Positions 2,323 to 22,541 are shown, counted from the stretch's first letter. The stretch is 64,000 nt of DNA from an uncultured Candidatus Saccharibacteria bacterium (GCA_964650645.1 CAZYUH010000001.1:219032-283031), one strand, 5' to 3'. Made by a program: numbers and translations. Notes: generated by a model not told the origin, from the sequence alone.

Positions 2323-5214
2323 CTAGGCGCTCTCCGGCGCGGCGGGCGCCGGGGCAACAGGAGCGGGTTCGGGCTCGGGTTCGGGAGCGGCAGGCGTCTC
2401 GTCGGGAGCCTGCGCGCCGGCATCAGCGGGCGCCTCATCCGCATCCGCGTCGGCAGGGGTATCTGCGGGCGTTTCATCGGTGCCGGTATCGGCAGGCGCG
2501 TCCGCGGACGCTTCCGCATCAGCGTCGGGAACATCATCGCCGGTCCCGGAAGCCGGGGCCTCGCTTGTCCCAGGCACGGGCGGCGGAGTCGAGCCGCGCA
2601 TGCCCTGGCCGGAAAGCAGCTGCTGGAGCTCGTCGCCGGTCACGCATACGGGGGCGCCGGCGGATGTCTTGATACAGAGCTGGTCGGTCGTCACCTGCCT
2701 GCTCGTAAAGCTGTCCGCGAACCCGGCCACCGCCGCGGCGAGCGCGTCAATCTTGGAAGAGAGCGCTTGCACGGCCTTTATGATGGGCGCGATGAAGCCG
2801 ATGTAGTTGACGCCGAGCGTGCCGCCCGGAGTGAGCGCCGTGGGCGACGTGGTGGAGACGAGCGCCGGGAAGAGCTTCTGCACGTCCTGCGCGATGAAGC
2901 CTAGCTGCGGGCCGTCCTTCAGGCGGTCCTTCCACGCGAACGTGACGGGATCGAGGCGGTCTATGAGCGCGAGGGTGGACGAGGCGTCAAGCGACTCGAT
3001 ATCGGTCTTGAGCCGCTTGTCGGAGCTCTGGGTGAGCGTGCCGGAGAGCTGTGCATTGCCGCCGTTGAAGACCGCGAACACGGTGCTTGAGGCGCTGTTC
3101 ACTACGCTGAACGAAAGCGTCGAGGAGGCGGCGTCAGCGCCCCACACCGAGAGCCTTGCGTAGCCGGTGGTGGTGCCGACCGCGACGCGGTTGTTATCGA
3201 TGGTAACGGAGCCTCCGCCGCCGTTGAGCGTCAAAGACGACGACCCGAGGGTCGCGGTCGCGGTCGCGCTGCCGTCGGGACTGGTCTGTATGGTGACTGC
3301 GGGCGCAACCGAGTAATTGCCTGGCGAAATTATGGTGAAGGTGTTGACGAAATAGCGCGCGGACGAGAGCGTTGCGCCCGAGCCGGTGCCGCCCGTCAGC
3401 GTTATGGGCCCGAAGTTCGGCGAGGAGCACAGGCCTCCCGCGTTGCCGGTGGTGCCCGTTATGGCGCCGCCGCTGACCGACGTGACGCGGATTTGCGGCT
3501 GCGTGGAGCAGGTCCCTCCGGCGAGAGTGAGGACGTCGTTGACGCTGTAGCCCGTGCCGGCCGAACCGATAGTCCACTGCGAGAGCTTCATGGTGGCGAC
3601 CGCGGCGGACGCCTGCGACCCGCCTGAGGGCGGCGCGGCGATGTTCACGGTCGGGATGAACGAGTAGCTTCCCGTGGAGCCGACCGCGAGCGACGCCACG
3701 CCGCCCATCGCGCCGATGCTCGGGGTCGTCACCGACGAGGCGAACGCGCCGCCCAGCCCGTTGACGGAGAAGCCGGGCGAAGAGAACGGCTTGGAGGTGG
3801 AGGCCCATGTCCAGTTGTCCGAGAGGTCGATGCCGATGCCGCCGATGCAGCCGGTGTTGTACGAGTCCGCCACGCAGCCCAGTATCGTGGTGCTGGCGTT
3901 CGTCACGTTCTGCCCGCCGTCGGTCTTCCCGAGCTGGAATATGTGCTTCCACGGCGTGGTACCCACGAACGCCTCCGCAGCGTCGTCATAAATGCCCTGC
4001 ACGCCCTTTTTGGAGTGGAGGATGCCGAACGTGTGCCCCGAGCTGCTGCCCTCGTCGGCGCGCACGTCCACCTCTATGGGGTTGAGCGTGTACCAGTTCG
4101 TGGCATTGGGCCCGAGCTGGGCTATGGGATTGAAGGCGTTGCACGTTCCCGCCACGTTCGTGAAGCCCTCCGTGCCGTTGTCGTTGAAGCCGCAGTACAC
4201 GTAATCGGCGATGCCCACGTAGTACTGCCTGCCGTTGCCGGTGTTGCTCGTGGTGCCCTGCATGATCATGGAAATGTCGAGGCCGGCGCGCGACCCGGTC
4301 ATCCCGGCCCCGCCCCAGTTGCCGTCTATATGGACGACGCTGCCGTAATTGTCGCCCTGGTAGTCCAGGGTATCCGCGCTGCGGGTGAAGGAGACGCCGG
4401 CCAGGTGGTTGAACCCCGCGCCGCCGCTTCCCGAGAACCAGGTGACGATATTCGCCAGGTCCTTCGCGCCGTTCGCGAGCCCGGCGCTCATGGACAGCGT
4501 GCCGGCCTTCAAGCTCGTCGCGTACAGATTCGTCGAGGTGGCGTTCGTGGCGAAAAGCCGCGTACTCGTCGCGCTTGCCGCAAAGAAGTTCGTGCTCGTC
4601 GCGCTGGCGAATATGTTGCCGCCGGTGAAGGTGTGGTCCGCCGCCAAGTCGAAGGAAGAGCCGCTCGCTATCCCGAGGCTCGACGTGGACACGAGGGCGT
4701 AGCCGCCCGCGCCGTCGCCCATGAGGAGCTGCCCGTAAGCGGGAGCGGACGAGACGCCGGTGCCGCCCTGGGATACGCCGAGCAGCCCGGTCGCCGCGGC
4801 GAGGTCGGCGCCGGAGGAGTTGCTGGCGCGCGCGATGGAGCGGTGTATGGCGTCTATCTGGGCGCTGTACTGCGATTCGCTCAGCGCGGCAGGCGCGGCG
4901 GCAGGCGAGACATCGCCCGTCGCGGTTACCGCGAGCACCGAAGAAACGAGCACGGCGACGTCTTGGCGCAAGGCAAAGAGGCGCTGGTCGAGCTCATCCT
5001 GGCTGACAGGGCCGGTTGAAGCGCCGAGCACCGCTCCGGGCGCGGACGCCTCCGGGACGGCCTCGAAAGCAGCCGCTTGGGCGGCCGCCTGTACAGGCGC
5101 CGGAACCGGAGCGGCCGGCGCGGAATGGACAGGGACCATGACCGACGCGAAAGCGACAGCCGAAGTAATAAGGCCTGCGACTTTGATACTGAGAGAATGG
5201 AGCAGTTCGTGCAT
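2323..5214 (-). CDS. giant secreted fibre-like protein 1 with C-terminal Peptidase_S74 (endosialidase-type intramolecular chaperone) domain and acidic tail
   Basis: 963 aa with a signal peptide and a conserved N-module (DELDQRLFALRQDVA...SESQYSAQIDAIHRSI). The middle is Gly/Ser/Thr/Asn-rich and repetitive. The C-terminus has SSDKRLKTDIESL...GFIAQDVQKLFPALV...IGFIAPIIKAVQAL, typical of the S74 chaperone domain, then an 88-aa Asp/Pro/Ala/Glu-rich tail. Confidence 0.85.
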   Translation of the reverse strand: MHELLHSLSIKVAGLITSAVAFASVMVPVHSAPAAPVPAPVQAAAQAAAFEAVPEASAPGAVLGASTGPVSQDELDQRLFALRQDVAVLVSSVLAVTATGDVSPAAAPAALSESQYSAQIDAIHRSIARASNSSGADLAAATGLLGVSQGGTGVSSAPAYGQLLMGDGAGGYALVSTSSLGIASGSSFDLAADHTFTGGNIFASATSTNFFAASATSTRLFATNATSTNLYATSLKAGTLSMSAGLANGAKDLANIVTWFSGSGGAGFNHLAGVSFTRSADTLDYQGDNYGSVVHIDGNWGGAGMTGSRAGLDISMIMQGTTSNTGNGRQYYVGIADYVYCGFNDNGTEGFTNVAGTCNAFNPIAQLGPNATNWYTLNPIEVDVRADEGSSSGHTFGILHSKKGVQGIYDDAAEAFVGTTPWKHIFQLGKTDGGQNVTNASTTILGCVADSYNTGCIGGIGIDLSDNWTWASTSKPFSSPGFSVNGLGGAFASSVTTPSIGAMGGVASLAVGSTGSYSFIPTVNIAAPPSGGSQASAAVATMKLSQWTIGSAGTGYSVNDVLTLAGGTCSTQPQIRVTSVSGGAITGTTGNAGGLCSSPNFGPITLTGGTGSGATLSSARYFVNTFTIISPGNYSVAPAVTIQTSPDGSATATATLGSSSLTLNGGGGSVTIDNNRVAVGTTTGYARLSVWGADAASSTLSFSVVNSASSTVFAVFNGGNAQLSGTLTQSSDKRLKTDIESLDASSTLALIDRLDPVTFAWKDRLKDGPQLGFIAQDVQKLFPALVSTTSPTALTPGGTLGVNYIGFIAPIIKAVQALSSKIDALAAAVAGFADSFTSRQVTTDQLCIKTSAGAPVCVTGDELQQLLSGQGMRGSTPPPVPGTSEAPASGTGDDVPDADAEASADAPADTGTDETPADTPADADADEAPADAGAQAPDETPAAPEPEPEPAPVAPAPAAPESA
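2585..3165 (-). repeat. about 580-bp segment highly similar at DNA level to 17620-18265 (shared 3' coding block of the two giant genes; e.g. an identical 49-mer TTTTATGATGGGCGCGATGAAGCCGATGTAGTTGACGCCGAGCGTGCCG)
   Basis: Direct comparison of the two regions. The antisense ORFs in the track (2807-3163 vs 17824-18264) are also near-identical. Confidence 0.7.
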
Positions 5215-5221
5215 ACGGCAA

Positions 5222-5249
5222 AGGGCAGGGCCACGAGTGGCCCTGCCCT
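5222..5249. promoter_or_regulatory. perfect 28-nt palindrome (AGGGCAGGGCCAC..GTGGCCCTGCCCT) 7 nt upstream of the ATG of giant gene 1; a -10-like TATACT lies at 5260-5265 on the minus strand
   Basis: Read directly. Same architecture as upstream of giant gene 2 (22542-22569) and a related palindrome at 25679-25700. Confidence 0.6.
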
Positions 5250-5311
5250 GTTACCTGCTAGTATATGCCCTTCATGCGCGCGCAACCGCGGGCGTGGGGA
5301 TAACGCGCGAC

Positions 5312-6022
5312 CTACCGCGGCGACGAGAATTGCGCCACGATGGCCGCTTCGTCCGCCGGACTGATGGCCTTCTTGAACCGCGCGCGGCGGCCGCGCACAC
5401 GCGCCTCGCATTCGCGCCAGCTCTTGTGCACCAGCACTACGCCGCCCACCTCGCTTATATAAGAGAACGCCTTGGTCGTTGAGCGCGATTTGCCCGATGA
5501 CTTCCTCTCCTTAAGCACCGTGTCATGGGCGAGGTTGGCTATGTCCACCTCGTACTCCTCTATGGGGCCCTTGTAGAGCCTGACCGCATTGCCGAGCGCG
5601 TACTCGGAAGCAATGGTGTCCACGCGCTCGTTGCCCGCGATGCCGACATGCCCGCCCACGTACTCCCACGCGACCTGCTGGCCACTCGCGGCTTCTACCA
5701 GGTCGCTCCACAGGTCCTTATTCAAAACATCCTTCTTCTCCTTGGTCTGCCAGCCGTTCTTCTGCCAGCCGTGCACCCATTTGGTGATGCCGTTTATGAC
5801 GTAGGAAGAGTCGGTGCGCAGGATGCGCGGGCCGGGCGGGAGGCTCTTGGCGTGCTGAAGGCCCCTCAGCGCGGCCATGAGCTCCATGCGGTTATTGGTG
5901 GTGTGCCCCTCGGCCCCGCCGAGCTCCACCACTTTCCCATTCCCCGCGACAACGGCGCCCCAGCCCCCCTTCCCCGGGTTGCCCTTGGACGCGCCGTCGG
6001 TAAACAAAAGGATTTCCTGCAT
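5312..6022 (-). CDS. rnhA: ribonuclease HI with C-terminal hybrid-binding (caulimovirus viroplasmin-like) domain
   Basis: N-terminal LLFTDGASKGNPGKGGWGAVV...TNNRMEL is an RNase H fold. The C-terminal about 70 aa (KAFSYISEVGGVVLVHKSWRECEARVRGRRARFKKAISPADEAA) matches the HBD/Cauli_VI pattern. Confidence 0.8.
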   Translation of the reverse strand: MQEILLFTDGASKGNPGKGGWGAVVAGNGKVVELGGAEGHTTNNRMELMAALRGLQHAKSLPPGPRILRTDSSYVINGITKWVHGWQKNGWQTKEKKDVLNKDLWSDLVEAASGQQVAWEYVGGHVGIAGNERVDTIASEYALGNAVRLYKGPIEEYEVDIANLAHDTVLKERKSSGKSRSTTKAFSYISEVGGVVLVHKSWRECEARVRGRRARFKKAISPADEAAIVAQFSSPR

Positions 6023-6038
6023 AGGTGGAGTATAGCAA

Positions 6039-7703
6039 CTATAGAATATCGACGATGCGCACGCGCGGCGAGCCGCGCCAGTCGCGCTCGACGTGGCCCA
6101 CGACGTCTACCCTATCGCCCGTTGCGGCTTTTTTAGTGAACGACTCGGGCGTGGAGAAAAACGCGATGCCGTCCACGCGGGTGAACTCGTCCGCCAGGGA
6201 TACCTGCAGGTGGTTCTTCTGCTTGCCGAAGGTCTTTAAAGAGCCGACCGTCGCGTTGGGGAATATGAACAAGGGCTTCTGGTTGCCGATGCCGAAGGGT
6301 GCGAGCCGGTCGAGGTGGCCGAGCGTGCGCAGCAGCTCGGAGAGGTCGAGCTCGCGATCCACGACAACCTCTTTCGCGGAAGCGCCCTCTTTTTCCATCG
6401 CTTGGTACGCCCTGCTGAGCGCGCCGGGAAGCTCGTGCGCGCGCGACTCCTCAAGCGCGAACCCGCCCGACGCGGCGTGCCCGCCGCAGTGGTCGAACAC
6501 GCCCGCAGCGGCCTGCGCCGCATGCATCAGCTCGACGACGTTCGCAACGCCGTCCGAGCGGCAGCTGCCGCGCAGAAGCTCGCCGCCCTCGCGGCCCCAG
6601 ACGAACGCGGGCTTGCGGTGCGCCTCCACGAGCGAGTTGGCGACGAGCCCCAGTATCCCGGGCCGCCACGACGGGCTCCCTATGACGATGACTGGGCTTT
6701 CAGCCCCGCCGAGCGCGAGTCGCTTGTTGGCTTCCTTTACGGTCGTAGCAACGAGCGCCTTTCGCTCGTCGTTAATCTTGTTGCGCGCGCGCGCGAGCGC
6801 GCCCGCTTCCTCGGAGCTTTCCGTCGCAAGCAGCCGGGCCGCGGCCTCAGGGCTGTCCATGCGCGACGCGGCATTGATGCGCGGAGACACCATGAAGCCG
6901 ATGTCGTCCTCGGTGAGCGTGCGGGGCTGTATGCGCAAAAGCTTCAAGAGCGCCGCGAGCCCCGGCCTGCGCCCGCGGCGCATCACCCGCAGGCCGAACG
7001 CGCCCAGCATGCGGTTCTCTCCCACCAGGGGCACCATATCCGAAAGCGTGCCGATGCCCACCAAATCGAGGTACCATTTCTCCCTTCCTTCCGCGAATGT
7101 CTCCGGGCGGTATCTCGACAGCACGCCCTGCACCAGCTTCCACGCGACGCCCGCGCCGCACAGGCCGTCGAACGGGTACCTGCTCGCCTTGAGCTTAGGG
7201 TTGATGATCGCGAGCGCGTCGGGCAGGACGGCCGGCTCGAGGTGGTGGTCGGTGACGATGACGTCCATGCCGCGGGAATTCGCGTACGCTATCTGCTCTA
7301 CTTCAGTAGTGCCCAAATCGCAGGTAATAACGAGCTTGGTGCCCGCGGACGCCAGCTCCTCCAGTCCTTCTATATTGAGCCCGTAGCCCTCCTTGTGGCG
7401 GTGCGGGATGTAGTGGCGCACTGAAAGCCCCATCTCGCGCAGGAAGCCTGCGAGCATGACGCCGCCCGGCACGCCGTCGGCGTCGTAGTCGCTCCACACG
7501 CACACCGGCTCACTGCCCTTTATGGCAGCGATGATGCGCCCGACCGCCGCTTCCATGCCCGGCAATAAGAACGGGTCGTGGCTGTGCGCTACATAGTCGG
7601 GCTCCAGGAAGTCGGCGAAGCCCTCGGGCGCCACGCCGCGCGCGAGCATGAGGTGCTCGAGGAGGTTGTCGTGCAGCCGCTCCCGTACCACGTACTCTTT
7701 CAT
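6039..7703 (-). CDS. recJ: single-stranded-DNA-specific exonuclease RecJ
   Basis: 554 aa with DHH and DHHA1 motifs (VITDHH...). Confidence 0.85.
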   Translation of the reverse strand: MKEYVVRERLHDNLLEHLMLARGVAPEGFADFLEPDYVAHSHDPFLLPGMEAAVGRIIAAIKGSEPVCVWSDYDADGVPGGVMLAGFLREMGLSVRHYIPHRHKEGYGLNIEGLEELASAGTKLVITCDLGTTEVEQIAYANSRGMDVIVTDHHLEPAVLPDALAIINPKLKASRYPFDGLCGAGVAWKLVQGVLSRYRPETFAEGREKWYLDLVGIGTLSDMVPLVGENRMLGAFGLRVMRRGRRPGLAALLKLLRIQPRTLTEDDIGFMVSPRINAASRMDSPEAAARLLATESSEEAGALARARNKINDERKALVATTVKEANKRLALGGAESPVIVIGSPSWRPGILGLVANSLVEAHRKPAFVWGREGGELLRGSCRSDGVANVVELMHAAQAAAGVFDHCGGHAASGGFALEESRAHELPGALSRAYQAMEKEGASAKEVVVDRELDLSELLRTLGHLDRLAPFGIGNQKPLFIFPNATVGSLKTFGKQKNHLQVSLADEFTRVDGIAFFSTPESFTKKAATGDRVDVVGHVERDWRGSPRVRIVDIL

Positions 7704-7726
7704 GAGTATTTAGTATACTTAGGCGC

Positions 7727-8056
7727 ATGGACGACTGCATCTTTTGCAAGATAGCCAAAGGCGAAATCCCTTCGCAGAAGGTATATGAGGACGACACGGT
7801 GGTCGCGTTCCTCGATATACACCCTAAAGCGCCGGGCCACACGCTGCTTATACCCCGCGCGCACTACCATTGGTTTACCGACATGCCCGACGAGCTTTCA
7901 GACAAGGTGTTCCGCGCCGCGAAGCGCGTTGCCTTGGAGCTTAAGGAAAAGCACGACGCCGACTTCGTGCGCCTGGGGCTGGTGGGCACCGACGTGCCGC
8001 ACGTGCACGTGCACCTCATCCCGCAGAAGATGCACCAGACAGAGCCGCAGATATGA
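7727..8056 (+). CDS. HIT-family nucleotide hydrolase
   Basis: HVHVHLIP histidine-triad motif. The N-terminal CIFCKIAKGEIP is typical of HINT proteins. Confidence 0.85.
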   Translation: MDDCIFCKIAKGEIPSQKVYEDDTVVAFLDIHPKAPGHTLLIPRAHYHWFTDMPDELSDKVFRAAKRVALELKEKHDADFVRLGLVGTDVPHVHVHLIPQKMHQTEPQI

Positions 8057-10328: not shown

Positions 10329-11888
10329 TTATTCGGCAGAAAGCCGTATCGCCTCTTCGGCGCTGGTGAGCCCCTGCGCGGCCTTGAAGAGGGCGTCTTC
10401 CGCAATATTCAACGTATCGAAACCGGGCGCTATGACCTCCTGGAGGCCCACGACGCCGCTGTAGCCGTCAGGATGCCCCGTTGAAGGGGTCGGGCGGGCG
10501 AAGGCGATATCCTTCCATGCGACGCCTTGCTCTATGACCTGCTCGTCCTTGAGCGCCTCGTACACGCGGGCGAAGTCGGCCGCCCCTTCAAGCGCGACAG
10601 ACTCGGGGCGGGAAAGCGGACGCGCGACAGCGAACTGGTCGGTCGCCAGCCGGCGCGCCAGCGCCACGCGCACGAGCGCGCCGGCCGCATCCGAAAGGAG
10701 GCCCTCGTCAGCGCTGTCTGACGCCGCCAGCACGAAGATGCCGCGCGCCGCCGCGGCGGCGGCGAGCGACGCACTCTCCTGGTCGCGCACGTGGCCGAGC
10801 AAAAGCACGTCGGGATGCTGGCGCAGGGCGGCGCGCAGGGCGGCCCCCGAGGAGATACCGTCCTTAAGCTCGGTCTGCGCCGCGTGCGGCAGGCGGCGCA
10901 GGATGCGCTCTTCCACGGTCGCCACGGAGACGCCCGGGTGCTGGAGGAGGTCGAGCATCGCGTACAGGAGCGCGCTCTTGCCCGAGCGCGGCGCGCCCGA
11001 CACTGCGACAAGCCCGCGGCGGCGCCCCAAACACAGACGCAGGGCGGCCAGGCCCTCGCCGTGGAGCCCCAGCGCCTCGAGCGTATAGCCCTCGGCACCC
11101 GAAGCGCGGCGCGCCAAGCGCATGTGGATGCGCTCGCCGCCGACCGTCGGCACCACGGAGACGTTCACATGCACCGTATCGCCATGCTTGTCCATCGCGA
11201 ACGCGCCCTGCTGGGGGCGGGCCACCGGCAGGAGCCGCGCCAGGATCTTCAATTCGCGCGCGAGCGCGTGGCCCGCCTGGGCCGGCAGGCGCATCGCCTC
11301 GTGTAATGCATGGCCCACCTGGTAGCGCACCAGGGCGCCATGGGTCGAGATATCGACATGCGCGCCCCCGGCGCGGCTGTAAAGCGCATGGCCTATGAGC
11401 GCCTCGGCGACGTGCCGGCCGTCGCTTAACAGCTCGCCGAACGTGTCCCTTAGATGCTTCTGGTACTTGAGGAGCGCGCGCTTGAGGGTCTCGCGGGTCG
11501 TCAGGTGCGGCACCACGCGCCGGCCGCCGAAGCCGCCGTCCGCTTCCAGCGCCGAGAGCGCATCAAGGTCGGCCAGATCGAGCACGGCAACGAGGACGCG
11601 CGCCTCGTCCGCCGCGAAGGCGATTATCTCCCGCGAGCGCGCGAGCGGCTCGGGAATGAGCGCCAGCGCCTCGACGGGAATGTCGTGCGGGTCCACCACG
11701 GCGAACGGGACGCCCAGCGCGTGGGCCTGCGCGCGGCGCACCTCGTCCTCGCCCATGAGCCCCAAGTCCACAAGCGTTTTTGAAAGCGGCGCGCTGCTGT
11801 GCGAGAGGTCGCCAAGCTGCGAGCGCGTGAGCAGGCCCGCATCCACCAAGAACTGCCCGAAAAGACGGTCGTCAGCGCGCATGTGCAC
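10329..11888 (-). CDS. GspE/PilB-family secretion/pilus ATPase homologue (orphan; catalytic motifs look degenerate)
   Basis: T2SE_Nter-like N-terminus. Walker A is GAPRSGKS. The Walker-B region reads HPDVLLLGHVRD where GspE/PilB has ...GEIRD, and the His-box reads AASDSAD instead of TLHTNDA. Confidence 0.7.
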   Translation of the reverse strand: MHMRADDRLFGQFLVDAGLLTRSQLGDLSHSSAPLSKTLVDLGLMGEDEVRRAQAHALGVPFAVVDPHDIPVEALALIPEPLARSREIIAFAADEARVLVAVLDLADLDALSALEADGGFGGRRVVPHLTTRETLKRALLKYQKHLRDTFGELLSDGRHVAEALIGHALYSRAGGAHVDISTHGALVRYQVGHALHEAMRLPAQAGHALARELKILARLLPVARPQQGAFAMDKHGDTVHVNVSVVPTVGGERIHMRLARRASGAEGYTLEALGLHGEGLAALRLCLGRRRGLVAVSGAPRSGKSALLYAMLDLLQHPGVSVATVEERILRRLPHAAQTELKDGISSGAALRAALRQHPDVLLLGHVRDQESASLAAAAAARGIFVLAASDSADEGLLSDAAGALVRVALARRLATDQFAVARPLSRPESVALEGAADFARVYEALKDEQVIEQGVAWKDIAFARPTPSTGHPDGYSGVVGLQEVIAPGFDTLNIAEDALFKAAQGLTSAEEAIRLSAE

Positions 11889-16690: not shown

Positions 16691-16696
16691 GGGCGC

Positions 16697-17326: not shown

Positions 17327-17333
17327 CCGGCTT

Positions 17334-20300
17334 TTACTGGGCCGCAGGAGCAGTCGCCGGTTCGGCGGCTGTTTCATTTGCGGCGGCGCTATCGCCCGAA
17401 GGGGCGGGCTCTTCAGCCGGCGCGGCCGGCTCTTCCTGCTCTGCATCCGCGCCCACGCTTGAGTCGGGCGCCTGCTCGGCAAGAGCCTCGTTTGCAGCCT
17501 CCTCGGAAGCGGGCGGCTCATCAGCGGCAGCATCATCTGACTCCGGGAACTGCGGCGTAGACGTCGCCTCAGAGGAAGGCTCTTCGGGCGCCGCGGGCTC
17601 GGGAGCGGGCGCAGGGGCCGAGCCCTGCATGCCCTGGCCCGCCAGGAGCCGCTGCAACTGCGCCTCGGTCACGCAGGTGCTGCCCACGCACAACTGGTCG
17701 GTCGCGTGCACCTCCTTGCTCGTAAAGCTCTCCGCGAATCCTGTCACGGCCGACGCGAGCATCTTTACCTGCTCGGCCAGGGCCTGGATGCCTTTTATGA
17801 TGGGCGCGATGAAGCCGATGTAGTTGACGCCGAGCGTGCCGTTGGGGGTGAGCGCCGTCGGCGACGTGGTGGAGACGAGGTCGGGGAACAATCTCTGCAC
17901 ATCCTGCGCGATGAAGCCTATCTGGAGCGCGCTCCCCTTGCTGCGGTCTATCCAGTTGAACGTGACCGGGTCGAGCTGCTCGAGCGCGGCCAGGGTAGTG
18001 GACGCGTCGAGCCCCACAACATTCTTCTTGAGCCTAGCGTCCGAGCTCTGGGTGAGCGTCCCCGAAAGCTGGGCATTGCCGCCGTTGAACACCGCGAACA
18101 CGGTGCTCGAGGCGCTGTTGACGATATTGAACGAAAGCGTGGAGGACGCTGCGTCCGAGCCCCACACGGTGAGCCTGCCGGAGGGCGAGGTAGTGCCGAC
18201 GCCGACGCTGCCCGCGGAAGTGATGCGCAGGCGCTCGTTGGCGTCCGCCGAGCCGCCGGTATAGAAGCGCAGGGCGCCCGCGCTGGCGCGCGCCATGACG
18301 GAGAGCCCGCCGGCAAGGGACGGACCGGAATCGATGAAGCCGCCGTTCTGGATGAACCCGCCCGATGTCGCCTTGCTTGCGCCGAACACGCCGACGCGCA
18401 GGGCGTTGCTGCTGCCAGCGGCGCTGCTGTTGCGCACCTGGAGCTCCGCCTGCCCTCCCGCGTTCGTGGCCGTAACATAGGACGCTATGGTGCTTGCCGT
18501 GCCGTACACCTCGAAGTTGGCCAGAGGCGAGTTCGTGCCCACGCCCACGGTTCCGCCCAGGTACGTATTGCCGGTGGTGGTGGCGTTGCCCGATATGACA
18601 AGGCCCGCAATGCCGTCGCCTATGGTCGAGGACGCGAACGCGGTAAGTCCGCCGTTGAACTGGGTCAAAGTCGAGGTCGCGTTGCCGGCAAGGCCGAACG
18701 GGTACGCCGCGCCGCTCCCGCCGCCCGCAGTGATGCACGTGCCGTTGACGGCAAAGCAGCCTGACGCGATGTTGATGCCGCCGGTGGTATTGAAGGTCGA
18801 GGTGGCGGTCGAAAAGTTGATGCCATTGCTGTTGCCGACCGAGAGGAGCGAGCCCGGCGTCGTGGTGCCGATGCCGACATTGCCGCCGGCGGCGAAGGTC
18901 GCGACGGTAGTGAGCGCGCCGCCGGAGCTCACCTGCTGGAGGTCGAAGCTTGCGTCATTGGTCGAGCGCGTATCGCTGTAGAACGCCCAGCCGTTCTTGC
19001 CGGTGTTGATGCGCTGGCCGCCCGTGCCGCTTGAATTGAAGTACAGGTTGAGGCCGAGGTTGGCCGCGGCGCCGCCGGAGCCGCCCACCTTGTAGCTGTA
19101 GATGAACGGGTTGGAGTTCGCATTGACCGTGTCGCGCGACACCAGGCCGATGCCGCCCACGCCGCTCCCGTGCGTGCTCGCCGCATCAAACGTACCCAGC
19201 GGGTTGGAGGTGCCGATGCCGACCCCGCCGCTCTTAGGCATCAGGCTTATGTTCACCGTCGCGTCGGTGCCGGTAGCGGCAAACGTGACCGCATTGCTCC
19301 CCGCCACGCCCGGCGTCAGCACGAAATAGTTGGTGTCTCCGGAGGTCGCGGGCGCGATGAGCTGGAGGAGCTTGTTCTCCTGCATGTAATCGGTCGACTT
19401 CACGCCGCGGATATCCAGGCCCGTCTTGGCGAATACGAGGTGCGTCTGGTTGTTCGGCGAGCCGCCGTTGGCCTGCGAGAATATCTGGCCGACCGTCGAG
19501 CTCGCGCCGCCTCCGTACTTGAAGTCGAGCATCTGGCCGTCGGCTATCTGCGCCCAAATTGAGCGATTGTTGGCATCCTCCAGGAGGGCGCCGTCCTGGA
19601 TCACGATGCCTTTCGCGAACACGTTGTCAGCAATAGCGCTCACCGAGTTAACGATGCCCAGCGCCACCGAGACCGGCTCTATGTCGTCCGCCGTATAGCC
19701 GTGGTACGTGTTGCCCGCAGCGACGTATGCGGCGTCCTCGCCGCCCACGCCCAGCCACAGGCCGGCCGTCGTGCCGTCCGAGCCCATGAGGTACGGGCTT
19801 ACGTTCACCAGCGGCTTGTAGGAGTTCGTGTCGAGCTCCATCGCGGTCGTGAACCTGTTGTCTTCCAGATGCGTCGCGTGGCCGTAGAACGCCCATGCCG
19901 TCTTCTTGGGCGTGCTCGTGCTGTTGTTAAGGGCGAACGCGGCGACGCCGATGGCGGCCGTATCGGTTGAGCTTCCGTCCACGTTGTCGGACGACCGGCT
20001 TGAGGCGGCTATGGCCACGCGCCCCTGGCCCGAAAGCACGCCCAATTGCGAGCGGGTGTCGTAGTAGCCCATGGTCGCCTCGCCGTCTATCCAGGACGCG
20101 ACGCCGTTAAGATACAGATCCCAGGTGTTCTTGTGGCCGGTGTTGCGGTAGTTGGAGCCGACAAAGAGGCGTCCGCCGACGCCCACGTTATTGACCGCGC
20201 CAGTGTCGGCCCAGTAGTTCGCGGTCGGCCTCGACAGTATCGAGCCGGTCGTCAGGCCCCCGCTGAAGTACCCGCTCCCCGTAACCGCGAAGGTGGCGCT

Positions 20301-22532
20301 CGGGGTGGTCGTTCCCACCGCGATGCTTCCGCCGAAGTACGCGTTGCCGGTGGTGGTCGCGCCGCCCGATATCGTAAGGCCGTTTGCCTGGGTACCGCTG
20401 CCTATAGTGGTGGAGGCGAGCGAGAGCAGGCCGCCGCTGAACGAAAGCCGGGTCGTAGTGGCATTGGAGGAGAACGGATAGGAGAATGCAAGCGCGCTGC
20501 CCGCGCTCAGGCACGTGCCGTTAACGGCGAAGCAGCCGCCCGCCAGGTTGATGCCGCCGGTCGAGTAAAAGGTCGAAGTAGCGGGCGTGAAGTTGGCGAC
20601 GCCGTTTACGGAGAGTATGGAGCCGGGCGTGGTGGTGCCAAGGCCGACAGAGCTTGCAACAAGGCTTCCGAAGCCTGAAGAGCCGTCCGTTACCTTGACG
20701 GAGGCCGCGCTGAGCCGCGCCAGGCCCGTATCGGCAGCGCCCGAAAACCCGAAGCCGGTCGCGCTGCTCCAGGAATACTGCCCGCCGGACGCCGTAACGA
20801 CCGTTCCGATATTATCCTGGTTGAAAAGCGTCCTGTACTCGGACAAGTCGGCATTCATGAAGCCGCCGCCGCTGCTGATAATAGGGTTGAACATCGCCAA
20901 CAGGCCGCTGAGCGTCAGCGATCCGTACTGCGCATCGTCGCCAGTGCGGACAACGAGGCCGTCGAGCCCTACGCTCGTATCGCTGGATTTAAGCTGGCCC
21001 GAATACAAGCCGTTAGCCAGCTTCACGCCGCCCGCATTGCCTATGTCGAGCCTTGCGGACGGGGCGCTGACGCCGATGCCCAGGTTCCCGCCTACATACG
21101 CGCTGCCGGTGGTGGTCGCGCCGCCCGAGACGGTGAGCCCGCCGGCCTGTGCGCCGCTCCCGACAGTGGTCGAGGCCAGGGAGAGAATGCCGCCGGAGAA
21201 CGTGAGCTTAGTGGACGTCGCATTCGAGACGAACGGGTACGCGGCGATAGCGGGGGTACCCGTGAGCTGGCCGTACGGCAGAGAGAGATTCGGGAGAGTG
21301 ATAATGCTCGCGACAGAGCTAGTGGCTGCAAGCTGGGTGACGAAGCGCGGGTCGAAGAGCGAGTTGAAGGTCGTGGTGTAGACCCCGTTGGTTACCGTGC
21401 CCGCGTTGCCGGTGATGGAGCCGGTGACGGTGTTGCTGAAGGTGTTGGTGCCACTGAACGTGTTGTTGTTTGCAAGGAGCGTGGAGGAGGCCGCCGCGAC
21501 GGTGATGTCCGCCGTGCCGTCGAAGGTGACGCCGTTGATGGTGCGAGGGGTCTGGAGGGCGGTGGCGGTCGAGGCGTTGCCGGTGAGCGAGCCGCTCAAT
21601 CCGCCACTGAACGTAATCAAAGTCGAAGTGGCGTTGCTGGGGAACGGGTACGCCGCCACGTCGGCAGACGTGAGGTAGTCGGTGCCCGCCACCGCGGCAG
21701 ACACGACGCCGCCGACGGTCTTCAGGAGCGCGCTTGGAATGCCCGAAACAGCCAAGCCGGCCGTCGAGACGTAATCAGCAGAAACGGCGGTAGTGCTCGC
21801 AAAGCCGACCGTGAGGCGGTCCGCGGCACTGTTGTAGGTAAAGCCCGCGTCGCCGCCGAAGTCGCCCGCGTCGTTGAACTGGACCTGCGCGCTGGACCCG
21901 CCCGGCGTGCCCGAGCCCGAGCCCGCAATGTCGTCGGCGCACACGACGTTGCCGGACGCGTCAGCGGTGAGCTTGCCGCCGTTATCAAGCGCGCTACAGT
22001 CGGCATTAAGCGCGATGCCCGCCAGGGTCGAGGTGGCCGAAACGGTGAGAGTGCCCGCAAGCGTCCCTCCTGAGAGCGGCAGGTAGTCGAGCGCCGGGAT
22101 GTCGGCGGCGGTAAGGCTTGAGAAATCAGCGATGCCGCCGGACGAAGAGCGGCTGATGGCCCGGTAAATCGAATCGATCTGCGACTCGTACTGGGATTCG
22201 GTTATAAAGGAAGGCTGGCTCTGGCCCCAGGAAAGCTGGACGATAAGCGAACCCGCAAGCGTCGCCACGTCCTGGCGCAATGCGTACAGCCGCTCATCGA
22301 GTTCTTTATGAGTAACGACATCGGACGTCTCTTCGCCCAGCACCTGCCCCGCCGAAGGGGCAACGGGGAACGTTCCGTACGCAGGCGCCGAATACGCGAT
22401 TCCAATCGCGAAAGGAGCCGGGGCCGGAGGAGCGGCAGGCGGCACTGCGGGAGCGAATATGGAAAGCGCGCCCAAAGCGGAAGCCGCCAGCGCGGCGAAC
22501 TTACCGGAAAGCGTATCGATAAAGGGATGCAT
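17334..22532 (-). CDS. giant secreted fibre-like protein 2 with C-terminal Peptidase_S74 intramolecular-chaperone domain and acidic tail (paralogue of 2323-5214)
   Basis: About 1732 aa. Start preferred at the ATG (MHPF...) by analogy with gene 1; the track begins 3 codons upstream at a TTG (22541). Same N-module (ELDERLYALRQDVA...ESQYESQIDSIYRAI), internally duplicated NATST / AAYPF..NAT.T.L.FSGG repeats, and a C-terminal SSDARLKKNVVGL...GFIAQDVQRLFPDLV... block followed by a 94-aa acidic tail. Confidence 0.85.
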   Translation of the reverse strand: MHPFIDTLSGKFAALAASALGALSIFAPAVPPAAPPAPAPFAIGIAYSAPAYGTFPVAPSAGQVLGEETSDVVTHKELDERLYALRQDVATLAGSLIVQLSWGQSQPSFITESQYESQIDSIYRAISRSSSGGIADFSSLTAADIPALDYLPLSGGTLAGTLTVSATSTLAGIALNADCSALDNGGKLTADASGNVVCADDIAGSGSGTPGGSSAQVQFNDAGDFGGDAGFTYNSAADRLTVGFASTTAVSADYVSTAGLAVSGIPSALLKTVGGVVSAAVAGTDYLTSADVAAYPFPSNATSTLITFSGGLSGSLTGNASTATALQTPRTINGVTFDGTADITVAAASSTLLANNNTFSGTNTFSNTVTGSITGNAGTVTNGVYTTTFNSLFDPRFVTQLAATSSVASIITLPNLSLPYGQLTGTPAIAAYPFVSNATSTKLTFSGGILSLASTTVGSGAQAGGLTVSGGATTTGSAYVGGNLGIGVSAPSARLDIGNAGGVKLANGLYSGQLKSSDTSVGLDGLVVRTGDDAQYGSLTLSGLLAMFNPIISSGGGFMNADLSEYRTLFNQDNIGTVVTASGGQYSWSSATGFGFSGAADTGLARLSAASVKVTDGSSGFGSLVASSVGLGTTTPGSILSVNGVANFTPATSTFYSTGGINLAGGCFAVNGTCLSAGSALAFSYPFSSNATTTRLSFSGGLLSLASTTIGSGTQANGLTISGGATTTGNAYFGGSIAVGTTTPSATFAVTGSGYFSGGLTTGSILSRPTANYWADTGAVNNVGVGGRLFVGSNYRNTGHKNTWDLYLNGVASWIDGEATMGYYDTRSQLGVLSGQGRVAIAASSRSSDNVDGSSTDTAAIGVAAFALNNSTSTPKKTAWAFYGHATHLEDNRFTTAMELDTNSYKPLVNVSPYLMGSDGTTAGLWLGVGGEDAAYVAAGNTYHGYTADDIEPVSVALGIVNSVSAIADNVFAKGIVIQDGALLEDANNRSIWAQIADGQMLDFKYGGGASSTVGQIFSQANGGSPNNQTHLVFAKTGLDIRGVKSTDYMQENKLLQLIAPATSGDTNYFVLTPGVAGSNAVTFAATGTDATVNISLMPKSGGVGIGTSNPLGTFDAASTHGSGVGGIGLVSRDTVNANSNPFIYSYKVGGSGGAAANLGLNLYFNSSGTGGQRINTGKNGWAFYSDTRSTNDASFDLQQVSSGGALTTVATFAAGGNVGIGTTTPGSLLSVGNSNGINFSTATSTFNTTGGINIASGCFAVNGTCITAGGGSGAAYPFGLAGNATSTLTQFNGGLTAFASSTIGDGIAGLVISGNATTTGNTYLGGTVGVGTNSPLANFEVYGTASTIASYVTATNAGGQAELQVRNSSAAGSSNALRVGVFGASKATSGGFIQNGGFIDSGPSLAGGLSVMARASAGALRFYTGGSADANERLRITSAGSVGVGTTSPSGRLTVWGSDAASSTLSFNIVNSASSTVFAVFNGGNAQLSGTLTQSSDARLKKNVVGLDASTTLAALEQLDPVTFNWIDRSKGSALQIGFIAQDVQRLFPDLVSTTSPTALTPNGTLGVNYIGFIAPIIKGIQALAEQVKMLASAVTGFAESFTSKEVHATDQLCVGSTCVTEAQLQRLLAGQGMQGSAPAPAPEPAAPEEPSSEATSTPQFPESDDAAADEPPASEEAANEALAEQAPDSSVGADAEQEEPAAPAEEPAPSGDSAAANETAAEPATAPAAQ
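17620..18265 (-). repeat. partner copy of the 2585-3165 repeat
   Basis: As above. Confidence 0.7.
18480..20624 (-). repeat. two about 125-aa internal coding repeats inside giant gene 2 (about 20268-20624 and about 18480-18863), plus a partial third copy near 21040-21250
   Basis: Protein-level repeat GS(I/L)LSV...F..ATSTF..TGGIN.A.GCFAVNGTC..AG...YPF...NAT.T.L.F.GGL...AS.TIG.G...GL.ISG.ATTTGN.Y.GG. Coordinates approximate. Confidence 0.6.
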
Positions 22533-22541
22533 ACACGGCAA

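What the first reader, a model, noticed from the sequence alone, without database searches (positions are those of the whole stretch)
2323..22541. Two paralogous giant secreted proteins ending in a phage tail-fibre-type S74 intramolecular-chaperone domain, with no phage context
Genes 2323-5214 (963 aa) and 17334-22532 (about 1732 aa) share a domain layout: a signal peptide; a conserved about 110-aa N-module (DELDxRL(F/Y)ALRQDVA ... ESQYxxQIDxIxRxI); a divergent Gly/Ser/Thr/Asn-rich repetitive middle with NATST and AAYPF..NAT.T.L.FSGG repeats; and a near-identical about 180-aa C-terminal block. The C-terminal block has S-S-D-x-R-L-K ... GFIAQDVQxLFPxLV ... IGFIAPIIK, the hallmark of Pfam Peptidase_S74, the auto-cleaving trimerisation chaperone of phage endosialidases, tail spikes and long tail fibres. 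No capsid, terminase, portal or baseplate genes lie nearby. Flanks are core genes (rnhA/comEC on one side, clpP/tig/rny on the other). They therefore look like host-encoded, trimeric beta-helical surface fibres or adhesins, plausibly for attachment to another cell or surface. This is an unusual use of a phage module in what appears to be a reduced-genome bacterium.
Basis: partly seen in the sequence, partly recalled or inferred. Interest (0 to 1): 0.8.

Follow-up and report, generated by a model that had tools for sequence, protein, structure and literature searches.

The report
Phage-like surface fibres in a CPR bacterium
Two chromosomal genes of a small-genome (Patescibacteria-like) bacterium encode exported proteins built from phage tail-fibre parts and ending in the self-cleaving S74 assembly domain. 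They are most likely cell-surface fibres like those a predatory bacterium uses to grip prey, which makes them a new variant of a known kind rather than something unprecedented.

Summary
ORFs 2323-5214 (A, 963 aa) and 17334-22532 (B, 1732 aa), both on the minus strand, match Pfam Peptidase_S74 (E about 1e-16), with the Ser/Lys dyad motif SDxRLK intact. They share an N-module (42% identity) and a C-block (70% over 200 aa, not "near-identical"). Core genes surround them, the synteny is kept in related strains, and I found no phage structural genes.

The phage ancestry is not limited to the C-terminus. B's centre matches a myophage baseplate-region protein (Phage_tail_beta). A carries repeats shared with a phage gene that follows a tape-measure gene. 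B's distal repeats match crystallised Bdellovibrio MAT fibres (Bd2133, E=5e-7).

Unlike viral S74 proteins, both have an N-terminal hydrophobic export or anchor segment and closely paired cysteines. Both also carry about 130 extra C-terminal residues: a conserved Cys-loop module and an acidic Pro/Ala tail. That extension was absent from all 76 viral S74 ORFs examined. Among cellular genomes it occurred almost only in Patescibacteria.

Strain comparison shows patchy recombination, not positive selection.

Cell-encoded S74 fibres are common in bacteria and were characterised in Bdellovibrio in 2024, so "unusual" is overstated. Both structure predictions failed. Trimerisation, self-cleavage and adhesion are therefore inferred, not shown.

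The parts
2323..5214 (-). Gene A: 963-aa exported fibre protein ending in S74
   Evidence: ORF. Pfam PF13884 E=1.4e-16. Orthologues of 74-99% identity sit in the same RNase H / ComEC slot.
5215..5303 (-). Upstream region of A, shared with B: TTATCCCCA box (5295-5303), CATATACTA box (5259-5267) and a 12-bp GC hairpin (5222-5249) ending about 8 nt before the ATG
   Evidence: Sequence and alignment. RNA fold -34.3 kcal/mol, z=-5.6. One compensatory stem change relative to B.
5125..5214 (-). A residues 1-30: the only hydrophobic segment in the protein (signal peptide or signal anchor), followed by a Pro/Ala-rich linker
   Evidence: Kyte-Doolittle 19-residue maximum 1.8 at residues 8-30, with no other such segment. 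The same feature is seen in 37 of 55 cellular S74 ORFs but only 1 of 44 viral ones.
4765..5037 (-). A residues 60-150: N-module (DELDQRLFALRQDVA ... ESQYSAQIDAIHRSIARAS)
   Evidence: 42% identical to B. A profile of it finds only its own cluster among 1.84 billion representative proteins. Weak matches at the same position in Adlerbacteria and Kaiserbacteria proteins.
3715..4512 (-). A residues 235-500: globular 'domain X' of unknown fold
   Evidence: 48-50% identical to the N-terminal part of secreted CBM60-containing proteins P0006 and P0023, which come from about 4.3 Mb genomes in a non-phage context. The AlphaFold model failed.
3205..3714 (-). A residues 501-670: about 70-aa GGxGYxVNDxLTxxGG repeats of phage-tail type
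   Evidence: Shared with P0025-P0049. P0037 lies directly after a tape-measure gene in a phage tail module. PHROG tail fibre families phrog_1980 (E=8e-21) and phrog_6921.
3025..3186 (-). A residues 677-730: pre-cleavage shaft block (VAVGTTTGYARLSVWG...NGGNAQLSGTLTQS), the predicted tip of the mature fibre
   Evidence: Most conserved stretch between A and B, also conserved in Adlerbacteria and Kaiserbacteria relatives.
2725..3024 (-). A residues 731-830: S74 intramolecular chaperone/protease domain, with predicted nucleophile Ser731 and Lys736 (SDKRLK)
   Evidence: Pfam. S, D, R, L and K are invariant in alignment A1. Profile matches to a phage tail fibre (8jov), the MyRF ICA domain (7dc3), a long tail fibre (6f45) and phi29 gp12 (3gud).
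2593..2724 (-). A residues 831-874: post-chaperone helix plus Cys-loop module (FADSFTS..V.T.QLC-x9-C-VTGDELQQLL)
   Evidence: Alignment of 29 sequences. Present in 27 of 79 genome loci, Patescibacteria-type. Absent from 0 of 76 viral ORFs.
2323..2592 (-). A residues 875-963: acidic Pro/Ala-rich low-complexity tail (22 D+E, no K or R)
   Evidence: Composition.
17334..22532 (-). Gene B: 1732-aa exported fibre protein ending in S74 (the TTG at 22541 is a possible alternative start)
   Evidence: ORF. Pfam E=9e-16. A 97%-identical, 1732-aa orthologue sits between ClpP and RNase Y in related contigs.
22533..22624 (-). Upstream region of B: TTATCCCCA (22616-22624), CATATACTA (22579-22587) and hairpin (22542-22569)
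   Evidence: RNA fold -28.3 kcal/mol, z=-4.7. The upstream neighbour (RNase Y) is divergent, so the hairpin is not that gene's terminator.
22062..22340 (-). B N-module (residues 68-160 in TTG numbering)
20322..22061 (-). B proximal shaft: AYPF/NATST repeats and a classic phage tail-fibre repeat (GNASTATALQTPRTINGVTFDGTADITV)
   Evidence: Repeat positions. PHROG tail fibre phrog_1833 at residues 313-366, E=5.5e-8.
18972..20321 (-). B residues 741-1190: central domain homologous to phage tail proteins
   Evidence: 36-37% identity over 70-85% of the query to P0050-P0053. P0050 carries PF27114 Phage_tail_beta and lies between wedge-like and tail-fibre genes. The AlphaFold model failed.
18045..18971 (-). 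B residues 1191-1499: distal shaft with (L)RFYT..ERLRIT..G.VG(V/I)GT..P...L.V repeats
   Evidence: phmmer matches to crystallised Bdellovibrio MAT fibres: 8OND Bd2133 (5.4e-7, three repeats), 8OML Bd1334 (1.6e-4) and 8OL4 Bd2439 (6e-3) (entry identities).
17742..18044 (-). B S74 domain (SDARLK; Ser1497 and Lys1502 in ATG numbering)
17334..17741 (-). B post-chaperone helix, Cys-loop (QLCVGSTCVTEAQLQRLL) and acidic Pro/Ala tail (23 D+E, no K or R)

Best explanation
A and B are chromosomal, vertically inherited genes of a Patescibacteria (CPR) bacterium related to Ca. Adlerbacteria and Kaiserbacteria. They encode cell-surface fibres assembled from phage receptor-binding-protein modules. They are the CPR counterpart of the Bdellovibrio 'mosaic adhesive trimer' (MAT) fibres.

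Proposed mechanism:
1. The single N-terminal hydrophobic segment sends each chain through Sec. It probably stays as a membrane anchor, with the Pro/Ala linker spanning the wall and the helical N-module forming the base (inferred).
2. The C-terminal S74 domains of three chains associate outside the membrane and nucleate folding of the trimeric shaft from the C-terminus towards the N-terminus. This is inferred from what is established for the S74 family in endosialidase, T5 pb1, MyRF and Bd3182.
3. The Ser/Lys dyad (A Ser731/Lys736; B Ser1497/Lys1502) cuts the chain in front of the Ser. This frees a 233-236-aa fragment and exposes the fibre tip (motif shown, cleavage inferred).
4. The mature fibres (about 700 and 1,470 aa) project from the cell and bind surface structures of another cell, most plausibly the host of this presumed episymbiont. 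The phage-derived central domains and the tip would act as the binding, or possibly glycan-cleaving, parts (inferred).
5. The CPR-specific post-chaperone extension (Cys-loop module plus acidic disordered tail, replaced or extended by an Ig-like domain in relatives) is an adaptation to assembly outside the cell. It could be a tether, a solubility module or a transient cap. Its role is unknown.

Variation between strains arises from patchwise recombination of allelic segments.
For: - S74 domain with intact SDxRLK and profile matches to solved S74 domains.
- B's shaft repeats match the sequences of Bd2133, Bd1334 and Bd2439, three crystallised Bdellovibrio MAT fibres.
- Phage-tail homology of the middle regions.
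- Export signature: one N-terminal hydrophobic segment and four closely spaced Cys pairs in each protein.
- N-terminal hydrophobic segments occur in 37 of 55 cellular S74 ORFs but 1 of 44 viral ones.
- Core-gene neighbourhood and conserved synteny in related strains.
- Shared upstream region with a covarying hairpin, which suggests co-regulation.
- Closest C-blocks are in CPR genomes at 58-68% identity, against at most about 47% in viral contigs.
- Mosaic alleles: gene A has dS 0.42 while the ComEC, SOD, RecJ, PGK and NusA flanks have dS 0.008-0.056 (adjacent RNase H is 0.45). Segment values range from 0.07 to 0.9, and P0017 is a three-way mosaic. B has divergent patches at codons 561-800 and 1121-1280.
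- Experimental precedent for the mechanism exists in Bdellovibrio: Bd3182 self-cleaves at S782, and MAT proteins were found on the predator cell surface (PMC10769870).
Against: - There is no structural support. Both AlphaFold2 models, of A 225-520 and B 741-1190, had mean pLDDT of 28-32.
- Trimerisation, cleavage, surface retention and binding were not tested and cannot be tested here.
- It is unresolved whether the N-terminal segment is cleaved (giving a released protein) or kept as an anchor. A has a possible AFA|S signal-peptidase site, and both proteins have Pro just after the hydrophobic stretch (reading).
- The N-module has no detectable relatives outside this lineage, so it is not a family-wide anchor domain like the one in MAT proteins.
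- dN/dS is about 0.2, so there is no signature of diversifying selection.
- The organism's lifestyle and host are unknown.
- The function of the conserved post-chaperone extension is unexplained.
Confidence: 0.6

Rival explanations
1. A and B are exported S74 fibres as described, but their job is not host attachment. They could form a protective or structural surface coat, serve as a receptor decoy against phages, or act as tailspike-like enzymes that cut polysaccharide for nutrient access or for passage through a host capsule.
For: - B's central domain and its phage homologues share many invariant polar residues (D, E, H, R, K, N, S in DRLFVGD, YYDTRSQ, SRSSD, YGHA, E.D, GVGGE), as an enzyme active site might.
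- A's domain X is shared with secreted proteins that carry a carbohydrate-binding module, CBM60.
- B is 97% conserved between strains, more like a structural component than a specificity determinant.
Against: - No catalytic family could be assigned. Pfam, NCBIfam and PDB profile searches were empty for both middle domains.
- The architecture and the shaft repeats match fibres shown experimentally to bind prey glycans.
- A shows the allelic mosaicism that is typical of recognition proteins.
Confidence: 0.2
2. The proteins are secreted and released rather than anchored. The N-terminal segment is a cleaved signal peptide, and the trimers act as soluble lectin-like or bacteriocin-like factors, or bind back to the producer's wall through the N-module.
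For: - A has a plausible AxA signal-peptidase site (AFA22|S).
- No sortase motif, lipobox or C-terminal anchor is present.
- Bdellovibrio MAT proteins have a cleaved signal peptide and are thought to be held on the cell by their N-terminal domain.
Against: - The hydrophobic stretch is about 20 residues long with a Kyte-Doolittle score of 1.8-1.9, which is in the transmembrane range, and Pro follows it directly in both proteins.
- B has no convincing AxA site at the right distance.
- No signal-peptide predictor could be run.
Confidence: 0.1
3. They are orphan tail-fibre genes left by a degraded prophage, or fibres for a tailocin or extracellular contractile injection system encoded elsewhere in the genome. 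In that case they would be assembled in the cytoplasm onto a particle.
For: - Every recognisable module has phage relatives.
- S74-ended fibres are also reported for eCIS (titles and abstracts).
- Only 64 kb of the genome is visible.
Against: - There is an N-terminal export segment, whereas 43 of 44 viral S74 ORFs lack one.
- The Cys pairs imply an oxidising extracytoplasmic location.
- The two genes lie 12 kb apart, each among core genes, at positions kept in related strains.
- No capsid, portal, sheath, tube or baseplate gene was found in the window or in the extended flanks.
- dN/dS of about 0.2 and intact ORFs argue against decay.
Confidence: 0.07
4. The S74 domain here has lost protease activity and serves only as a permanent trimerisation or C-terminal domain. 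That would explain why a conserved extension has been added after it.
For: - The post-S74 extension is conserved across distant CPR lineages and sometimes carries an Ig-like domain, which is odd for a fragment that is simply discarded.
- P0007 has two S74 domains in tandem.
Against: - The motif residues S, D, R, L and K are invariant in all aligned members, and GFxAQ is nearly so.
- 27 of the 29 family ORFs with the extension, including A and B, have the standard SDxxLK motif; L020 and L042 read CTSDINLKK and CSSDINLKK.
Confidence: 0.03

Closest known systems
Bdellovibrio bacteriovorus MAT (mosaic adhesive trimer) fibres, S74 subgroup, e.g. Bd3182 (Caulton et al. 2024, PMC10769870)
   Same: - Cell-encoded, not phage-encoded.
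- An N-terminal export signal and a long shaft.
- A C-terminal S74 domain with the SDxxxK motif.
- Mosaic middle and tip regions, and several paralogues per genome.
- B's shaft repeats match the Bd2133, Bd1334 and Bd2439 sequences directly.
   Different: - The host organism is a CPR bacterium, not a diderm predator.
- The conserved, roughly 130-aa beta-rich N-terminal domain of MATs is not detectable. The N-module here looks helical and is private to the lineage.
- There is a post-chaperone extension of about 130 aa (Cys-loop plus acidic tail). The Bdellovibrionales S74 ORFs I sampled end 78-120 aa after GFxAQ, against 192-194 aa here.
- There is no experimental evidence for these proteins.
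Phage S74 (CIMCD) tail spikes and fibres: K1F/endoNF endosialidase, T5 pb1, phi29 gp12, long tail fibre distal subunits
   Same: - The same chaperone/protease domain and motif.
- Phage tail-fibre repeats and phage tail-protein domains in the shaft.
   Different: - Phage proteins have no export signal (1 of 44).
- They end 49-78 aa after GFxAQ.
- They lack the Cys-loop extension (0 of 76; no cultured-phage match beyond query residue 153 of 210).
- They sit in tail modules.
- Identity to A and B is at most about 47%.
MyRF (myelin regulatory factor) ICA domain
   Same: - A cellular, non-viral use of the same domain.
- One of the best PDB matches (7dc3, E=4.7e-12).
- Cleavage separates a trimer from a fragment that carries further sequence after the chaperone.
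   Different: - It is a eukaryotic ER-membrane transcription factor.
- There the membrane anchor is C-terminal to the ICA domain, so cleavage releases the N-terminal part. Here the only hydrophobic segment is N-terminal, so cleavage would release the C-terminal part.
S74-ended 'tail fiber domain-containing' proteins of other Patescibacteria (unpublished as a family as far as I could find)
   Same: - The same architecture: an N-terminal hydrophobic segment, NATSTN-type repeats, S74, the Cys-loop module and a low-complexity tail.
- 58-68% identity in the C-block for Adlerbacteria and Kaiserbacteria.
   Different: - The middle regions are almost entirely different.
- Some relatives add a Bact_surface_Ig-like (PF16403) domain after the Cys-loop.
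- The N-module is recognisable only weakly, and only in Adlerbacteria and Kaiserbacteria.

Membership tests
Pfam PF13884 Peptidase_S74 / intramolecular chaperone auto-processing (ICA) domain | Significant match to the family profile above the curated threshold | tested here: met
   A scores 61 bits and B 58.3 bits against a cut-off of 22 bits. Both matches start at profile position 1.
Pfam PF13884 Peptidase_S74 / intramolecular chaperone auto-processing (ICA) domain | Catalytic Ser-Lys dyad in the motif S-D-x-x-x-K | tested here: met
   A has S731-D-K-R-L-K736 and B has S-D-A-R-L-K. S, D, R, L and K are invariant in alignment A1.
Pfam PF13884 Peptidase_S74 / intramolecular chaperone auto-processing (ICA) domain | Helical C-terminal part of the chaperone following the GFxAQ core | tested here: met
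   The profile alignment runs through IGFIAPIIKAVQALS...DAL, matched to the helices of 8jov and 7dc3 (query positions up to about 125).
Pfam PF13884 Peptidase_S74 / intramolecular chaperone auto-processing (ICA) domain | Trimerisation-dependent autoproteolysis that releases the domain | not testable with these tools
   This needs expression of wild-type and S-to-A constructs, or proteomics.
Bdellovibrio-type MAT fibre superfamily (PMC10769870) | Encoded by the cell and exported (signal peptide) | tested here: met
   Core-gene context and synteny. A single N-terminal hydrophobic segment and Cys pairs. Whether the segment is cleaved is unknown.
Bdellovibrio-type MAT fibre superfamily (PMC10769870) | Conserved beta-rich N-terminal domain of about 130 aa right after the signal peptide, shared by all members | tested here: not met
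   A profile of the A/B N-module found only its own cluster among 1.84 billion representatives at E<=0.001. It gave no hit in the Bdellovibrionales ORFs apart from a non-significant one (L048, E=0.027). The MAT N-domain sequence itself was not available for a direct comparison.
Bdellovibrio-type MAT fibre superfamily (PMC10769870) | Trimeric beta-helical shaft with recurring 'capping loop' repeats (V-G-G/N-pi-x-x-P-x-x-x-L) | tested here: inconclusive
   At the sequence level, B 1400-1470 matches three repeats of Bd2133 (8OND, 5.4e-7), plus Bd1334 and Bd2439. VG(V/I)GTTxPxxxL units recur at five sites in B and one in A. The fold and the trimer could not be checked because the models had pLDDT of 28-32.
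Bdellovibrio-type MAT fibre superfamily (PMC10769870) | Variable adhesive tip, or an S74 terminus | tested here: met
   Both end in S74. The middle regions are unrelated between A and B and differ from other family members.
Bdellovibrio-type MAT fibre superfamily (PMC10769870) | Surface localisation and binding to another cell | not testable with these tools
   This needs microscopy and binding assays.
Prophage, tailocin or eCIS tail fibre | Located in, or functionally linked to, a cluster of tail or particle genes | tested here: not met
   Pfam and PHROGs scans of all sizeable ORFs in the 64 kb found no such genes, nor did the extended flank of L001. The rest of the genome was not seen.

The most novel reading that the evidence does not exclude
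Patescibacteria (CPR) episymbionts choose and grip their host cells with domesticated phage receptor-binding proteins. These would be exported, membrane-anchored S74 fibres whose binding modules are reshuffled by recombination. Their CPR-specific post-chaperone extension (Cys-loop module plus acidic tail or Ig domain) would be a new device for assembling, or transiently capping, a phage-type trimer outside the cell. The near-identical C-blocks found in Alphaproteobacterial contigs would then record gene flow between symbiont and host.
Probability: 0.3. Interest if true: 0.75.

Novelty: new variant of a known kind. Interest (0 to 1): 0.5.

Why it matters
How ultrasmall CPR/Patescibacteria recognise and bind their hosts is largely unknown. 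The abstract of bioRxiv 10.1101/2024.11.25.624915 (listed) says so explicitly, and so far mainly type IV pili have been implicated.

These genes give concrete candidates for host-range determinants that can be tested. They have a predictable processing site (A Ser731, B Ser1497), a defined mature fibre, and naturally occurring mosaic alleles.

They also extend the idea of a cell-encoded phage fibre from a diderm predator (Bdellovibrio) to a monoderm-like symbiont lineage. In addition, they reveal a conserved C-terminal add-on that phage and Bdellovibrio S74 proteins lack, which may bear on how a C-to-N folding trimer is assembled after Sec export.

The finding is less surprising than first scored. 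S74 domains are abundant in bacterial chromosomes, and the Bdellovibrio precedent already exists.

Tried and rejected
- **Structure prediction.** AlphaFold2 on A 225-520 (9-sequence alignment) and B 741-1190 (5-sequence alignment) gave mean pLDDT of 27.8 and 31.7. Both job slots were used and the models are unusable, so I ran no fold search.
- **PDB profile searches of the two middle domains.** Only spurious hits: designed beta-trefoils and ATP synthase epsilon.
- **NCBIfam.** No hit for either protein. Pfam gave nothing beyond S74 even at E<=1 for the middle domains.
- **N-module profile against 1.84 billion representatives.** It found only its own cluster, so the idea of a widespread anchor domain is rejected.
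- **Full-length homology search.** It was swamped by low-complexity words, with 12 hits among 8000 candidates. Sub-region searches worked better.
- **Cultured-phage database.** No match for A's middle region, and one weak Vibrio phage match for B's middle region.
- **Positive selection as the cause of A's divergence.** Rejected, because dS rises together with dN and dN/dS is about 0.2. Recombination explains the pattern better.
- **Leader hairpin as an intrinsic terminator or part of a sigma-70 consensus promoter.** The simple scans call neither. B has no co-directional upstream gene to terminate.
- **Literature searches for S74 in CPR/Patescibacteria.** Nothing found.
- **Rfam.** Only four tRNAs in the window and no rRNA for taxonomy.

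Full report
**1. The observation**

The window has about 64% G+C. It carries two long ORFs on the minus strand: A at 2323-5214 (963 aa) and B at 17334-22541. B's first in-frame ATG is at 22532, giving 1732 aa. Gene callers on related contigs use that start.

Both proteins match Pfam PF13884 Peptidase_S74 from profile position 1. A matches at residues 731-786 (E=1.4e-16) and B at 1500-1556 (E=9e-16), against a curated cut-off of 22 bits.

BLASTP of A against B gives two homologous blocks. The C-terminal block is 70% identical over 200 residues, and the N-terminal module is 42% identical over 100 residues. The long middle regions are unrelated. tblastn finds no third copy in the window.

**2. 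Genomic context**

Pfam scans of about 50 ORFs across the window find only cellular genes:
- SOD, ComEC, RNase H, RecJ, HIT, PGK, TIM, a PilB-like ATPase, NusA, pyrophosphatase, trigger factor, ClpP, RNase Y, HU and the CCA-adding enzyme;
- a Xer-like recombinase, a PNPase-like protein, an M23/LysM peptidase, UvrD and KsgA;
- a PrgI/VirB4-type secretion cluster;
- DnaA and DnaN.

PHROGs scans of the unannotated large ORFs are empty. The one exception is a partial, probably spurious, terminase-family match inside the secretion cluster, 30 kb away from B.

Related metagenomic contigs keep A between RNase H and ComEC, and then continue into ribosomal protein and EF-G genes. They keep B between ClpP and RNase Y. 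The refutation condition "sits inside a prophage" is therefore not met for the sequence that can be seen.

RNase Y and the monoderm-type secretion cluster point to a Patescibacteria/CPR organism. So does the finding that the closest C-blocks lie in Ca. Adlerbacteria and Kaiserbacteria MAGs at 58-68% identity. No rRNA gene is available in the window to confirm this.

**3. Anatomy of the two proteins**

Each protein has exactly one hydrophobic segment, at the N-terminus (Kyte-Doolittle about 1.8-1.9 over 19 residues). A Pro/Ala-rich linker follows it, then the shared N-module. All eight cysteines in each protein occur as closely spaced pairs, as expected for an extracytoplasmic protein.

A then has the following parts:
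- three ATSTN-type decapeptide repeats;
- a 265-residue "domain X" that is 48-50% identical to the N-terminal part of secreted CBM60 proteins from 4.3-Mb genomes in a non-phage context;
- about 70-residue GGxGYxVNDxLTxxGG repeats. These are shared with proteins such as P0037, whose gene directly follows a tape-measure gene in a phage tail module. They also match PHROG tail-fibre families (phrog_1980, E=8e-21).

B has the following parts:
- a proximal shaft with four AYPF/NATST units and a classic phage tail-fibre repeat (phrog_1833);
- a 450-residue central domain that is 36-37% identical to phage proteins carrying PF27114 Phage_tail_beta. One of these lies between wedge-like and tail-fibre genes;
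- a distal shaft whose repeats (RFYT..ERLRIT..GSVGVGTTSPSGRLTV) match the crystallised Bdellovibrio MAT fibres Bd2133 (8OND, E=5.4e-7, three repeats), Bd1334 (8OML) and Bd2439 (8OL4) (entry identities).

The phage ancestry therefore runs through the whole of both proteins, not just the C-terminus.

**4. The S74 domain and what follows it**

The motif is SDKRLK in A (Ser731, Lys736) and SDARLK in B. S, D, R, L and K are invariant in an alignment with distant relatives.

A profile of the C-block matches four solved structures:
- a phage tail fibre, 8jov (4.5e-12);
- the MyRF ICA domain, 7dc3 (4.7e-12);
- a long tail fibre distal subunit, 6f45 (1e-9);
- phi29 gp12, 3gud.

The region after the chaperone is new relative to phage proteins. 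In 76 viral S74 ORFs from IMG/VR, the protein ends 49-78 residues after the GFxAQ core, and none has further conserved sequence. In cultured phages, no match goes beyond residue 153 of the 210-residue query. A and B continue for 192-194 residues after GFxAQ. This extra sequence is a longer helix (…AVAGFADSFTS…), then a conserved module T-x-x-L-C-[VI]-x(3-10)-C-[VI]-T-x-x-Q-L-x-x-L-L, then an 89-95-residue acidic Pro/Ala tail without a single Lys or Arg.

Among 79 loci from species-representative genomes, 27 carry this Cys-loop module. By record label they are:
- 17 Patescibacteria (Adler-, Kaiser-, Nomurabacteria, Paceibacterota, Saccharibacteria, Minisyncoccia and others);
- 5 records named only "bacterium";
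- 3 MAG contigs labelled Alphaproteobacteria and 1 labelled Proteobacteria.

None of the ORFs from Bdellovibrionales, Bacteroidota, Acidobacteriota, Omnitrophota or Myxococcales has it. Some relatives add a Bact_surface_Ig-like domain after the module.

**5. Exported versus cytoplasmic assembly**

I scored the first 70 residues of complete ORFs for a strongly hydrophobic segment. One is present in 14 of 19 cellular Cys-loop ORFs and 23 of 36 other cellular S74 ORFs, but in only 1 of 44 viral S74 ORFs. A scores 1.92 and B scores 1.88. This separates cell-encoded S74 proteins, as a class, from phage fibres that assemble in the cytoplasm.

**6. Evolution between strains**

In contigs whose ComEC, SOD and RecJ are 97.6-99.8% identical to the window, the A orthologue is only 82% identical. 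Sliding-window comparison shows mosaics. For example, P0017 resembles A at the N-terminus, P0002 in the middle and P0003 at the C-terminus.

Nei-Gojobori estimates for A give dN=0.087 and dS=0.417. Five nearby flanking genes (ComEC, SOD, RecJ, PGK, NusA) have dS of 0.008-0.056. Segments of A range from dS 0.07 to 0.9, and the adjacent RNase H gene is also divergent (dS 0.45). dN/dS is about 0.2. B is 97% identical overall, but has divergent patches (dS 0.3-0.56) at codons 561-800 and 1121-1280.

This is the signature of imported allelic segments, that is recombination, under purifying selection. It is not the signature of positive selection.

**7. Shared upstream region**

A and B share about 90 bp upstream of the ATG:
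- a TTATCCCCA box;
- a CATATACTA box that resembles a -10 element;
- a 12-bp GC-rich hairpin, CAGGGCAG(R)GCC-N6-GGC(Y)CTGCCCT, with one compensatory change between the copies. It ends 8-10 nt before the start codon.

The hairpins fold at -34 and -28 kcal/mol, with z-scores of -5.6 and -4.7. Simple consensus scans call neither a sigma-70 promoter nor a terminator there. B's upstream neighbour is divergent, so the hairpin cannot be that gene's terminator.

I read this region as a common leader that implies co-regulation or mRNA stabilisation. That reading is an inference.

**8. Mechanism**

The S74 family is well studied in endosialidase, T5 pb1, MyRF and Bd3182. There the domain trimerises, templates the folding of the preceding triple beta-helix, and then cuts itself off at the Ser of SDxxxK (PMC10769870).

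Applied here, the steps would be:
1. Sec export through the N-terminal segment.
2. Probable retention by that segment, with the Pro/Ala linker crossing the wall.
3. Trimer nucleation at the C-terminus outside the membrane.
4. Cleavage that releases residues 731-963 of A and 1497-1732 of B (ATG numbering).
5. Mature fibres that present phage-derived binding or enzymatic domains.

Shown here: the domain, the motif, the export signature, homology with the MAT shaft, the phage-module content, the core-gene context and the mosaicism.

Inferred: trimerisation, cleavage, anchoring and host binding.

The post-chaperone extension remains unexplained. I suggest it acts as a tether, a solubility module or a transient cap. 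Chaperone "caps" have been described for Alteromonas phage fibres (PMC10579305, title and abstract).

**9. Comparison with what is known, and novelty**

The closest known system is the Bdellovibrio MAT family: 21 fibres, 13 ending in S74, all with a signal peptide and a conserved N-terminal domain, found on the predator cell surface, with one shown to bind prey glycans.

A and B work like MAT fibres and share shaft repeats with them. They fail one defining feature, the conserved MAT N-terminal domain. They also add a C-terminal extension and come from a different, monoderm-like lineage.

S74 domains in bacterial chromosomes are common. A single peptide pattern found at least 408 loci. I found no paper that describes S74 fibres in CPR bacteria.

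My verdict is a new variant of a known kind, of moderate interest. These are good candidates for host-recognition proteins in a group where that question is open, but they are not a conceptual surprise.

**10. Limits**

- Both structure predictions failed, so I ran no fold searches.
- The folds of domain X and of B's central domain are unknown.
- I could not run a signal-peptide predictor.
- The organism's identity rests on the nearest relatives and on gene content.

Noticed in passing
window 5215-5303 and 22533-22624 (minus strand): Both fibre genes share an upstream region: a TTATCCCCA box, a CATATACTA box and a very stable 12-bp GC hairpin with one compensatory base-pair change, ending 8-10 nt before the ATG. 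No Shine-Dalgarno sequence is visible. A similar hairpin (CAGGGCAGATCGC...GCGATCTGCCCTTT) lies upstream of the S74 ORF in L019. TATCCCC boxes lie upstream of the fibre genes in L008, L012, L016 and L021.
   Followed up: partly
L005, L009, L010, L015 (MAG contigs of 0.28-2.0 Mb labelled uncultured Alphaproteobacteria); also L014: CPR-type C-blocks (55-66% identical to A in L005, L009 and L010; 50-51% in L015 and L014), with the Cys-loop module in all but L015 and the Ig-like domain in L005, L009 and L010, occur in contigs with genuinely proteobacterial flanks (AraC regulator, protoglobin-MCP chemoreceptor, IS21 transposase). L005, L009 and L015 are truncated or frameshifted. This is either horizontal transfer between a CPR lineage and a possible host lineage, or chimeric assembly.
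   Followed up: partly
window 2323-6022, compared with L001: Gene A and the adjacent RNase H gene form a divergence island (dS 0.42-0.45), while genes on either side have dS of 0.01-0.05. The recombination tract extends beyond the fibre gene.
   Followed up: yes
window 52605-59176: A secretion cluster of monoderm conjugation type (PrgI-like 52605-53048; VirB4/TraG-like ATPase 53715-55529) with several large unannotated ORFs nearby (47333-49372, 49379-51847, 56194-57210, 57899-59176). ORF 53051-53704 gives a partial PHROG match to a 'terminase large subunit' family (profile positions 4-89 of 555, E=2e-7). This is probably a shared N-terminal segment rather than a terminase.
   Followed up: no
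window about 25500-32800: G+C drops to 0.53-0.57, against about 0.64 elsewhere. The stretch holds four tRNA genes (Gly-TCC, Pro-TGG, Arg-TCG, Gly-GCC), the CCA-adding enzyme, an Exo_endo_phos nuclease and a tyrosine recombinase (31871-32803). It may be an integrated element or simply an RNA-gene-rich region.
   Followed up: no
window 10329-11888 (minus strand): A PilB/T2SSE-type ATPase gene lies between the two fibre genes. Type IV pili are the attachment organelles implicated so far in cultivated Patescibacteria, so the two systems may act together.
   Followed up: no
P0007 (residues 834 and 1004); L067: Some CPR relatives carry two S74 domains in tandem within one protein (P0007). One locus holds three S74 ORFs (L067). 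This implies serial cleavage or local gene amplification.
   Followed up: no
window 18972-20321 (B residues 741-1190) with P0050-P0053: The central domain shares about 70 invariant residues with its phage homologues. They include clustered polar motifs (DRLFVGD, YYDTRSQ, SRSSD, KK..WA.YGHA, E.D, GVGGE, KGIV.Q). This could be an uncharacterised tailspike-type enzyme or binding site. No solved or annotated relative was found.
   Followed up: partly
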